Shown in pieces: positions 34,528-36,929 of a DNA stretch of 64,000 nucleotides (position 1 is the first letter of the stretch; each line of letters starts with the position of its first letter). Origin of the DNA: Octopus sinensis (Eukaryota); assembly GCF_006345805.1 (NCBI RefSeq), contig NC_043013.1:6944001-7008000 (forward strand). The letters run 5' to 3'. Position numbers: made by a program.

Positions 34528-36929
34528 TATATATATGTAGGCCAGGTGTTATAGAGCGTAATATGAATTAATGACTAGCAGAAGAATAGGGACTTATGTA
34601 AACACTTATGTAATAGGAGTTATGTAATGGCCAATCCCCTCGCTACTATCTCTGGGCATTATGATGTTAATGAGTTTCGAGTATTATTTTTTTTTTTTTT
34701 GCTTCGTTAGAAGTATTAAAATAAGAACGACAACAAGAAGACTCAAGAGGCCAACATCTGCGATTACAACTCCAAGTGTCACCTTCACGGTTGATTCCTT
34801 TGTATCTGTAAAGATAATGAAAAGCAATATGATGTTTATTCGACAGATATTCAAATGGCGGATTATTCAAATATTTCGTACATTTGTTTATTTAATTACT
34901 GTCAATCAATGATGTATTTTTATGCGATACTGGAATTCGATCTCAAAAGCAGTCCACTGTTTTTCAGTTTGTTCAACAAGCTTCATTTCTTACTAATGGA
35001 ATGGAAGCACTCCGTCGGTTACGACGACGAGGGTTCCAGTTGATCCGAATCAACGGAACAGCCTGCTCGTGAAATTAACGTGTAAGTGGCTGAGCACTCC
35101 ACAGACACATGTACCCTTAACGTAGTTCTCGGGGATATTCAGCGTGACACAGAGAGTGACAAGGCCGGCCCCTTGAAATACAGGTACAACAGAAACAGGA
35201 AGTAAGAGTGAGAGAAAGTTGTGGTGAAAGAGTACAGCAGGGATCACCACCATCCCCTGCCGGAGCCTCGTGGAGCTTTAGGTGTTTTCGCTCAATAAAC
35301 ACTCACAACGCTTTCTTACTAATAAAAACAAAGCATATAAGACCAAGGAGGTCTTCTGAAGTGGTTGCTCAACAATCTAGTGATAGCAGTTAAATCTCCT
35401 ACGAATCACACCATTCCGGGATCAAAACGAACAGCGCACTGGATGAAGTTGTGCAGGATACACTATATTTGAATATACAGTGTGGTCTAGAAAGAAAATT
35501 TTCATTCCAGCCTACCACCAAAAATGTTTTTTAACGTCTTTCTTAGCTAAAAGGCCTGAATCTCAGAATCCATTTATCTCTTTTTTTTAATGTAACAACA
35601 TAATTATACTTAAGGAATTTTGTTATAAATATTGGGTGGGTGCATAATTATTACGGCTTTTTTATCAACAAATTTTAATCAGTTATGTTTCAATTTGGCC
35701 AGTAAAAAAGATTTTGCCCTCAAAACTTTATATATATATATTAGTAATATAATAAGAGTAAATAATTTCTTTAATGGTTCTTAAAAAATCCAACAATTAT
35801 TTACTGGTAGATTTCGGCATGTAAATATAACCATTAACGGTAGGAATTTCTATAAAGTTCAGTATATATATATTGTATATAAATAAAAGAGGCAGGCAAC
35901 AGGTTGCTTAGCCGCATACCGAAAAAATTAGAAATAGCAGTCATAGACTGTTTATTTCTATTTTCTACAAATGGGACTCCACATACGACATATCCCTGTA
36001 ATTCACATATGCAAAACAGAAGGAAGAAATAACGAAAACAAAGTCTAACGGTCATTTACGAACATGTTTCTAGATTAGAAATATAATGAATATATATTTC
36101 ATGTCTTTCATCAGCGTAAACCTCCACTAAAATAGATTTATCAAATGCTACGTACCTCCACTTCCTGACCAGACGACATCAAAATAGTGGAAGACAGCGA
36201 GCATAGGCTAAACCTATATAGACAATTGAATTCGTAAATTTTCCCTCCAAAACATATCCCTGAACTTTATAGAAGTTCCTACCGTTAATGGTTATATTTA
36301 CATGCCGAAATCTACCAGTAAATAATTGTTGGTTTTTTTTTAAACCATTAAAGAAATTATTTACTCTTATTATATTACTAATTGGAATTTTCACTCCCTT
36401 ACGACAACCCATAGTTTCTACCTCTAAGGAACTATTTTTGTAATGCGCATGGTAAAGTTTTGGAGGGAAAATTTACGAATTCAATTGTCTATTTCTTTCT
36501 CCAGGACTTTACTGCACCGGGTGGCCTCAACACTTGCTTTCGCATAGTCTGATTTGGCTTACAAGTGAAGGAGAGAAGACACATGTTAACCAACATCAGA
36601 CAAAATCAGTTTAGTGACTTTATTCAAAGTGCACGGGTAACAGGTTAGTAAGGGCACGTGCCAAAACCTTTAGATTTTTTTGCTACTGGTATTATTGTTA
36701 ACACCCAGGTCAGTCCTATGCAATCAGAATTATGGCCAAAAGTGATCCAATGTTGTTCATCTTGCCCTTTTTTTTCAGACACAATATCAAGAACTACATT
36801 ATCCAATAAGTGCACCATAAGGTGACAGAGTGTGCTTTCAGGCAGATTAAGGTGCTAATTCTAGCAGTTCTGGGCACCCTTTTTTGCTTGGTTTCTTGAT
36901 TTAATATATCTCAAGATGTATATAAATAC

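What the first reader, a model, noticed from the sequence alone, without database searches (positions are those of the whole stretch)
34684..34960. Orphan paralogue of the MCO anchor exon 32.6 kb upstream: tandem array or alternative anchor
Seen: a second exon with the same acceptor, phase and TM+K/R tail design, plus similar upstream intron sequence. I found no MCO catalytic exon between 34805 and 64000. Its helix contains an Asp (VIADVG) absent from the first copy. Inference: either the last exon of a neighbouring paralogous MCO with an intron >29 kb, a relic of a partial duplication, or a TM module shuffled onto a different gene (see the exon at 48979).
Basis: partly seen in the sequence, partly recalled or inferred. 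Interest (0 to 1): 0.7.

Follow-up and report, generated by a model that had tools for sequence, protein, structure and literature searches.

The report
Stranded copy of laccase membrane-anchor exon
An octopus laccase gene's small last exon, which encodes its membrane anchor, has a diverged second copy 32.6 kb away with no enzyme-coding exon nearby; it is ordinary gene-family debris or an unannotated last exon of a sister gene.

Summary
On the minus strand, 34805..34684 is an open exon-like unit. It has an AG acceptor, the transmembrane (TM) frame offset by 2 bases (phase 1), a 25-residue hydrophobic helix, a KQKKKK tail and a stop. Its only match in the window is the anchor exon of the multicopper oxidase (MCO) gene at 2174..2059 (E 4.6e-19; 262-284 bp of homology). 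The window is octopus DNA: the MCO is 91% identical to an O. bimaculoides laccase-like protein.

Copy 2 lies 28.8 kb 5' of that MCO's start codon, so it cannot be an alternative anchor for it. No catalytic MCO sequence lies in the 29.2 kb upstream. The candidate exon at 49047..48979 ends in phase 0 and would not read the TM frame.

Copy 2 is the most diverged octopus anchor (13-20 of 36-38 residues identical to the others). It has lost a Cys kept in 7 of 7 other cephalopod anchors. Yet its codon-position pattern and retained hydrophobicity argue against long neutral decay.

- Best reading: a stranded anchor exon of a lost or partial tandem MCO duplicate (0.5).
- Main rival: a live last exon across an intron longer than 29 kb (0.35).

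No transcript evidence could be obtained. This is ordinary gene-family evolution.

The parts
34684..34805 (-). Copy 2: exon-like unit with 2 bases completing a split codon, 39 codons (TM helix with Asp, KQKKKK tail) and a TAA stop. A run of 14 A encodes the lysines.
   Evidence: Sequence read; frames; homology to 2059-2174; best 21-residue Kyte-Doolittle hydropathy 3.15.
34806..34943 (-). Intron flank of copy 2 with the acceptor (AG at 34807-34806, TTATCTTTACAG); homologous to the intron flank of copy 1.
   Evidence: 77.5% identity over 120 aligned bases and 83% in the last 80 columns. The homology ends at 34943. A 16-mer is shared exactly at 34862-34877 and 2222-2237.
34660..34683 (-). Short stretch after the stop that is still weakly alignable to copy 1's 3' flank.
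   Evidence: homology to 34660; 56% identity in columns 420-470, then random.
2059..2174 (-). Copy 1: the anchor exon actually used by the MCO gene (TM helix, RKQKD tail, stop).
   Evidence: Sequence. tblastn hits of the C-termini of P0001, P0003 and P0005 at 2175-2062 (77-79% identity). The ortholog P0001 reads ...ENENA-AVTNPTV across the same junction.
2175..2289 (-). Intron flank of copy 1 homologous to that of copy 2.
3824..5894 (-). Single catalytic exon of the MCO: signal peptide and three cupredoxin domains, ending with a phase-1 donor G|GTATGT (intron starts at 3823).
   Evidence: ORF; donor read; Pfam Cu-oxidase_3, Cu-oxidase and Cu-oxidase_2, E 5e-45 to 2e-28; 91% identity to an O. 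bimaculoides laccase-like protein.
34998..35311 (.). Young SINE inserted about 190 nt upstream of copy 2's acceptor, with a 12-bp target-site duplication TTTCTTACTAAT (34986-34997 and 35312-35323).
   Evidence: 97.5% identical to 24788-25103; duplication is family D1.
48979..49047 (-). Its phase is incompatible with the TM frame of copy 2.

Best explanation
Copy 2 is a true paralogue of the laccase/MCO membrane-anchor exon. It was produced by the tandem duplications that built the octopus laccase cluster, and it is now stranded. It is what is left of a sister MCO gene whose catalytic exon was deleted, rearranged away or never copied.

Shown: the homology, the intact acceptor, the open frame, the TM helix and basic tail, and the absence of any catalytic exon for 29.2 kb upstream.

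Inferred: the exon served as a working anchor for part of its history, since drift alone would rarely keep the helix. It then escaped the tight sequence constraint seen in the other anchors. It lost the helix Cys and the Pro of PTV, gained an Asp, and its stop region was rewritten by an 8-nt insertion into a 14-A run. On this reading it contributes to no protein today.
For: (a) No MCO catalytic sequence lies anywhere in 34806-64000. The sister gene's equivalent intron is only 1.65 kb (3823..2175). An octopus genome paper gives a mean intron of 5.4 kb for O. minor (passages).

(b) Copy 2 is the most diverged octopus anchor. It shares 13-20 of 36-38 residues with the others, while copy 1, P0001, P0003 and P0005 share 27-31 of 36 with each other. 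The helix Cys present in 7 of 7 other cephalopod anchors is Gly here. PTV, present in 5 of 5 other octopus anchors, is STV here.

(c) The only other strongly diverged anchor, P0004, belongs to a model that its source labels LOW QUALITY.

(d) Partial MCO copies exist in a sister species. Residues 652-857 of the O. bimaculoides model P0002 repeat its own residues 208-413 at 73% identity, and that model has no anchor.

(e) dN/dS is 0.57 over 37 codons, which is weak constraint.

(f) The first AATAAA is 468 nt after the stop, against 65 nt for copy 1.

(g) At least 46% of the upstream 29.2 kb is repeated elsewhere in the window. It also holds a LINE reverse-transcriptase fragment and 5 kb of satellite.
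Against: The exon looks usable.

- The acceptor and the 12 bases before it are identical to copy 1, the 39 codons are open, and there is no indel inside the coding part, although the alignment needs 4 gaps in the intron flank.
- Codon position 2 is spared: mismatches are 15/7/18 of 37, p 0.023.
- In simulated neutral drift from copy 1, an open frame with hydropathy at or above the observed value survives in 23.5% of runs at 15 substitutions, 10.6% at 20, 2.5% at 28, 0.8% at 34 and 0.2-0.3% at 40. The two copies differ at 40 sites.
- The exon differs more than the intron flank (Fisher p 0.03 and 0.007). A copy dead from birth does not predict this. However, if gap columns count as differences, intron identity is 93 of 144 (64.6%), the same as the exon.
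- The family tree shows at least 5 octopus paralogue lineages, with at most 3 among the listed hits from any one species (3 in O. bimaculoides: P0001, P0002, P0003). One of them (P0002) has no known anchor, so a live partner beyond the window is possible.
- An acidic residue in the helix is not a defect in this family: 14 of 65 anchored homologues have one.
Confidence: 0.5

Rival explanations
1. Copy 2 is the live 3'-terminal exon of a neighbouring paralogous MCO. That gene's single catalytic exon lies beyond the window edge, and the two are joined across a transposon-bloated intron of more than 29.2 kb. The product would be a type I membrane-anchored laccase with an Asp-bearing helix.
For: - Intact acceptor, open frame, TM helix and basic tail.
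- Codon-position bias and the simulation results.
- The intron flank is more conserved than the exon.
- Several paralogue lineages exist, and one (P0002) lacks a known anchor.
- The upstream stretch is largely repeats that could have inflated an intron.
- D/E occurs in the helix of 14 of 65 anchored homologues.
Against: - The intron would have to be about 18 times that of the sister gene (1.65 kb), and more than 5 times the 5.4 kb mean intron reported for O. minor.
- Family-conserved anchor residues are lost.
- dN/dS is 0.57.
Confidence: 0.35
2. The anchor exon was captured by an unrelated upstream gene (exon shuffling) and supplies that gene's membrane anchor.
For: A self-contained terminal module in phase 1 can in principle be used by any upstream phase-1 donor. 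Unique, non-repeat blocks exist upstream, for example 48249-49495.
Against: - The only proposed partner (49047..48979) ends in phase 0 and would read IQRNQP*.
- Seven minus-strand ORFs of 65-107 aa between 36 and 59 kb gave 0 of 7 Pfam matches. The only family found upstream is a plus-strand reverse transcriptase.
- I did not scan short candidate exons systematically.
Confidence: 0.08
3. Copy 2 is an alternative or mutually exclusive anchor exon of the MCO gene in this window.
For: Same acceptor sequence and the same phase as the exon in use.
Against: Copy 2 lies 28,790 nt upstream of that gene's start codon on the coding strand, so it is transcribed before the catalytic exon, if at all.
Confidence: 0.01
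4. The similarity is a chance match between two AT-rich, hydrophobic-coding stretches, or both are copies of a dispersed repeat.
For: TM-coding sequence is compositionally biased. The shared exact 16-mer is not remarkable on its own inside a 78%-identical alignment (my estimate, not a tool result).
Against: - E 4.6e-19 and 3.4e-28 in window-sized searches, with collinear intron, exon and 3' flank.
- There are only two copies in 64 kb, and no terminal repeats or target-site duplication around the unit.
Confidence: 0.01

Closest known systems
C-terminally TM-anchored laccase-like three-domain multicopper oxidases of molluscs (annotated 'laccase-like', 'laccase-2-like' and similar; closest is O. 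bimaculoides XP_014787384.1, here P0001)
   Same: Copy 2 encodes the same kind of tail as these proteins: a short linker, a hydrophobic helix and a K/R-rich end. It is DNA-homologous to the anchor exon of one of them. In a census of the 120 best homologues, 65 have such a C-terminal helix.
   Different: No cupredoxin exon is attached within 29 kb. The helix lacks the Cys shared by 7 of 7 other cephalopod anchors and carries an Asp. Identity to other octopus anchors is only 34-56%.
Gene fragments and partial duplicates inside tandem gene arrays (unprocessed pseudogene pieces)
   Same: It is an isolated piece of a gene next to an intact family member in a repeat-rich interval. A partial MCO copy is also embedded in an O. 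bimaculoides model.
   Different: Copy 2 has no disabling mutation. The acceptor, frame and stop are intact, and the substitution pattern is not neutral-looking.
Hephaestin-type membrane-anchored multicopper ferroxidases (recalled from general knowledge, not tested here)
   Same: A multicopper oxidase ectodomain held at the membrane by a single C-terminal helix.
   Different: Those are six-domain ceruloplasmin relatives. The octopus gene is a three-domain laccase type. No homology of the anchors was tested or is claimed.

Membership tests
Paralogue of the octopus MCO anchor exon | Significant DNA homology to a verified anchor exon, collinear through intron flank, exon and 3' flank | tested here: met
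   E 4.6e-19 and 3.4e-28 over 286 columns.
Paralogue of the octopus MCO anchor exon | Same acceptor position and intron phase | tested here: met
   Identical TTATCTTTACAG; the TM frame is offset by 2 bases in both. Copy 1's junction matches the ortholog protein P0001.
Paralogue of the octopus MCO anchor exon | Encodes a hydrophobic helix followed by a basic tail and a stop | tested here: met
   Best 21-residue hydropathy is 3.15, against 3.69 for copy 1; tail KQKKKK*.
Paralogue of the octopus MCO anchor exon | Family-conserved residues of the anchor (helix Cys; PTV before the helix) | tested here: not met
   Cys is present in 7 of 7 other cephalopod anchors but is Gly here. PTV is present in 5 of 5 other octopus anchors but is STV here.
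Functional terminal exon of an MCO gene | A catalytic (three-cupredoxin) exon upstream on the same strand with a phase-1 donor | tested here: not met
   None in 34806-64000. Sequence beyond 64000 could not be examined.
Functional terminal exon of an MCO gene | Spliced transcripts or protein models that contain the exon | tested here: inconclusive
   The word-indexed search found nothing, but the same search with copy 1's peptide also missed known relatives. The full scan of 50%-identity representatives found 0 hits, and octopus MCOs would collapse into one cluster there. No RNA data are available.
Functional terminal exon of an MCO gene | Purifying selection on the coding sequence | tested here: inconclusive
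   dN/dS 0.57; mismatches by codon position 15/7/18 of 37, p 0.023; drift simulation 0.2-10.6% depending on the assumed number of neutral substitutions (20-40). Only 37 codons and no DNA outgroup.
Decayed pseudo-exon | Disabling lesions (stop, frameshift, lost splice site) | tested here: not met
   Open frame, no indel in the coding part, AG and pyrimidine tract intact.
Alternative 3' exon of the MCO in this window | Lies downstream of the shared donor in the same transcription unit | tested here: not met
   It lies 28.8 kb upstream of the ATG at 5894 on the coding strand.
Dispersed repeat or transposon-borne module | Many copies; terminal repeats or target-site duplications | tested here: not met
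   Two copies in the window and no flanking repeats. Genome-wide copy number is not testable with these tools.

The most novel reading that the evidence does not exclude
Copy 2 is a live, neofunctionalised anchor. On this reading it is spliced over more than 29 kb to a sister laccase or to another gene. Its intramembrane Asp, replacing the family's conserved Cys region, lets the enzyme pair with a partner that has a basic TM residue. The unusually conserved 140-nt intron flank shared by both copies is a splice-control element. That element would switch these laccases between a secreted form and an anchored form. The catalytic exon's frame runs 12 codons past the donor to a stop, and an ATTAAA lies 45 nt further on.
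Probability: 0.08. Interest if true: 0.5.

Novelty: new member of a known kind. Interest (0 to 1): 0.2.

Why it matters
The main value is for annotation. The finding marks a spot where gene predictors may either miss a very long last intron of a laccase paralogue or wrongly attach a stranded exon. It also shows that the octopus laccase cluster holds more lineages and fragments than any one annotation lists.

Biologically it documents two things:
- The membrane anchor of these immune-related oxidases sits on its own small exon.
- That exon can survive apart from the enzyme-coding part.

If the exon proved to be in use, it would give a natural anchor variant (Asp in the helix, no Cys) to compare with the standard one.

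Tried and rejected
- **Search for annotated or assembled proteins carrying copy 2's peptide.** The 'longer' lengths search found nothing at E<=10. I then ran the same search with copy 1's peptide as a positive control. It also found nothing, although P0001, P0003 and P0005 are in that database and score E 6e-7 to 2e-5 in a local phmmer run at the same database size. The negative therefore carries no weight.
- **Full HMMER scan of 50%-identity representatives.** It gave 0 hits at E<=0.001. This is weak evidence, because octopus MCOs (about 75% identical) would share one representative.
- **Rfam scan of 33500-36500.** Only sub-threshold microsatellite look-alikes.
- **The shared exact 16-mer in the intron**. 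I considered it as a regulatory element and dropped it as evidence on its own, because a 16-base run is not unusual in a 78%-identical alignment (my estimate).
- **Extension of homology beyond the ~280-bp unit.** I looked in 1-6200 against 32000-40000 and found only microsatellite matches.
- **Pfam on ORFs between and upstream of the copies.** Only transposon domains.
- **Literature.** Two full-text searches (I read the 15 listed titles and abstract starts of each) showed no paper on TM-anchored molluscan laccases or on this octopus cluster. I read passages of PMC4722754 (no mention of anchors), PMC7665748 (squid laccase-3 as an immune-related extracellular enzyme) and PMC6279123 (O. minor intron and repeat figures).
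- **Not done or not possible.** Supplements are closed, so the O. minor intron table was not seen. I made no systematic scan for short phase-1 exons upstream. I did not build or search a joined (spliced) MCO model. Exons were searched one by one, and the split codon at the junction was only read by eye.

Full report
**What the window is.** The sequence is AT-rich animal DNA full of microsatellites, SINEs and transposon remnants. The one clear host gene is a laccase-type multicopper oxidase (MCO) on the minus strand.
- Its signal peptide and three cupredoxin domains are encoded by a single exon, 5894..3824. Pfam finds Cu-oxidase_3, Cu-oxidase and Cu-oxidase_2 at E 5e-45 to 2e-28.
- The best database relative is an Octopus bimaculoides 'laccase-like' protein (P0001, 91% identity). 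Further octopus and cuttlefish laccases follow at 57-77% (BLASTP values as listed). The window is therefore octopus DNA.
- The catalytic exon ends in a phase-1 donor (GCT G|GTATGT, intron from 3823).
- A 1.65-kb intron leads to the anchor exon 2174..2059. Its reading (...A ITNPTVRVALGV...RKQKD*) agrees with the C-terminus of the ortholog model P0001 (...ENENAAVTNPTVMVGLGV...RKQKN).
Each exon was handled alone, and the split codon was only read by eye.

On the minus strand, 34805..34684 follows the same twelve intron bases and AG as copy 1. It is open only in the frame offset by two bases, and it encodes TKESTVKVTLGVVIADVGLLSLLVVVLILILLTKQKKKK*.
- The only match to this region in the window is copy 1: E 4.6e-19, and 262-284 bp at E 3.4e-28 with sensitive scoring.
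- The homology covers about 115-138 nt of intron, the exon and about 25-30 nt after the stop. Nothing else is collinear between the two neighbourhoods, and there is no third copy.
- The Asp (GTC->GAT) is real.
- tblastn with 8 cephalopod MCOs finds no catalytic remnant anywhere outside 3700-6000.

**Geometry and phase exclude two readings.**
- Copy 2 is 28,790 nt upstream of the MCO's ATG on the coding strand, so it cannot be an alternative anchor for that gene.
- The unit at 49047..48979 has good AG and GT flanks but is open only in frame 0. Spliced to 34805 it would give IQRNQP*, not the helix.

**How the two copies differ.**
- The coding part is 64% identical (72 of 112 bases) with no gaps. 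The intron flank is 77.5% identical (93 of 120), and 83% in the last 80 columns, but the alignment needs four gaps there.
- By substitutions alone the exon is the less conserved part (Fisher p 0.03 and 0.007). If gap columns count as differences, the two are equal (93 of 144 = 64.6%).
- Mismatches fall 15, 7 and 18 on codon positions 1, 2 and 3 of 37 codons (chi-square p 0.023). dN is 0.42, dS is 0.73 and the ratio is 0.57. The Jukes-Cantor distance of the intron flank is 0.19-0.27.
- I simulated neutral drift from copy 1. An open frame with a helix at least as hydrophobic as copy 2's survives in 23.5% of runs at 15 substitutions, 10.6% at 20, 2.5% at 28, 0.8% at 34 and 0.2-0.3% at 40, which is the observed number of differences.
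- Copy 2 has therefore not simply drifted since it arose. A good part of its divergence happened under selection for a membrane helix. With 37 codons and no DNA outgroup, this evidence is moderate and not decisive.

**Family context.**
- Of the 120 best homologues, 65 end in a hydrophobic helix within their last 60 residues. Of those 65, 14 have Asp or Glu inside it. An anchored laccase is thus common in molluscs, and an acidic helix residue is not a defect.
- The octopus proteins form a star of at least five lineages about 75% identical to each other: window MCO plus P0001, then P0002, P0003, P0004 and P0005 (10 rows, P0002 cut to 640 residues). No single species' annotation lists them all.
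- The anchors of copy 1, P0001, P0003 and P0005 are strikingly alike (27-31 of 36 residues). P0004 shares 20-23 of 36-37 with them, and its source labels that model LOW QUALITY. Copy 2 is the most diverged, sharing 13-20 of 36-38 residues with the other octopus anchors, and is closest to P0003 and P0005.
- Copy 2 has Gly where 7 of 7 other cephalopod anchors have Cys. It has STV where 5 of 5 other octopus anchors have PTV.
- The O. bimaculoides model P0002 lacks an anchor and runs into a partial second MCO copy: residues 652-857 match its own residues 208-413 at 73% identity. Fragments of MCO genes do occur in this cluster.

**Surroundings.**
- A young SINE with an intact 12-bp target duplication sits about 190 nt upstream of the acceptor.
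- Of the 29.2 kb upstream, 46% has a second match inside the window. The stretch also holds two inverted arrays of a 22-bp satellite, a 99%-identical tandem duplication of about 0.9 kb and a LINE reverse-transcriptase fragment.
- The 28.8 kb between copy 2 and the MCO carries mariner and pogo/Tigger remnants.
- The first AATAAA after copy 2's stop is 468 nt away. Copy 1 has one at 65 nt, inside a SINE.

**Transcript or protein evidence could not be obtained.**
- The indexed protein search with copy 2's peptide was negative. The identical search with copy 1's peptide, used as a control, also missed relatives known to be in the database. Those relatives score E 6e-7 to 2e-5 in a local run. The negative is therefore uninformative.
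- The exhaustive scan of 50%-identity representatives gave no hit, but a full-length MCO carrying this tail would be hidden behind another representative.
- Cluster members could not be listed.

**Weighing the readings.**
- Against a live exon: it needs an intron of more than 29.2 kb where the sister gene has 1.65 kb, and a mean of 5.4 kb is reported for O. minor (passages). It has also left the otherwise tight sequence constraint of the anchors.
- Against a copy dead from birth: the retained frame, helix and acceptor; the spared second codon positions; and the exon being no better conserved than the intron.
- The middle course fits best. It is the anchor exon of a tandem MCO duplicate that worked for a time and is now stranded after loss or rearrangement of its catalytic exon. 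My confidence is about 0.5.
- A live terminal exon with a very long intron remains a serious rival (0.35). Capture by another gene is possible but unsupported (0.08).

Either way this is ordinary tandem-family evolution. It is useful for annotation and not a new kind of element.

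Noticed in passing
window 3736-3823 (minus strand): The catalytic exon's frame continues 12 codons past the donor (GMFYAYSFIFSL) to a stop at 3788-3786. An ATTAAA lies at 3741-3736. An unspliced or intron-polyadenylated transcript could therefore encode a soluble, anchorless laccase.
   Followed up: no
window 39585-40813 and 41984-45865: Two arrays of one 22-bp satellite in opposite orientation (about 56 and 172 units) flank a 1.2-kb microsatellite core. They translate into long spurious ORFs (RQRSKRVPTKIKEGADKDQRG...).
   Followed up: partly
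window 57959-58945 and 58862-59846: A tandem duplication of about 0.9-1.0 kb at 99% identity, next to (ATGT)n arrays.
   Followed up: partly
window 34998-35311 and 24788-25103: Two copies of a 314-bp SINE at 97.5% identity. The copy near the finding has an intact 12-bp target-site duplication, so the insertion is recent.
   Followed up: partly
window 1989-1994 (minus strand): The first AATAAA after copy 1's stop (65 nt downstream) lies inside a SINE-like sequence, so the working gene may take its poly(A) signal from a repeat.
   Followed up: no
window 30033-30902 (-), 19806-20189 (-), 31429-32500 (+), 60953-61378 (+): Transposon remnants: mariner (HTH_48, Transposase_1), pogo/Tigger-like (CENP-B_N, HTH_Tnp_Tc5, DDE_1) and a LINE reverse transcriptase in a GC-rich (58%) block.
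   Followed up: partly
protein P0002 (O. bimaculoides LOC106881494 isoform X1), residues 641-873: This public model has no membrane anchor. It ends in a partial repeat of its own middle cupredoxin domain (73% identity), which suggests a mis-joined model or an embedded gene fragment in the sister species' cluster.
   Followed up: partly
window 48979-49047 (minus strand): A clean AG...GT-flanked 69-nt open unit (VQRLDANVLRLLSDYGPKCKQKK) in a non-repeat block. It may be an exon of an unidentified gene or chance, and it was too short for the protein searches.
   Followed up: partly
C-termini of the 120 MCO homologues: Many bivalve and gastropod anchors carry a polar Gln or Glu at a similar helix position (...LQF......LEF...). 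Cephalopod anchors have Cys there instead. This may be a conserved functional position in the helix.
   Followed up: no
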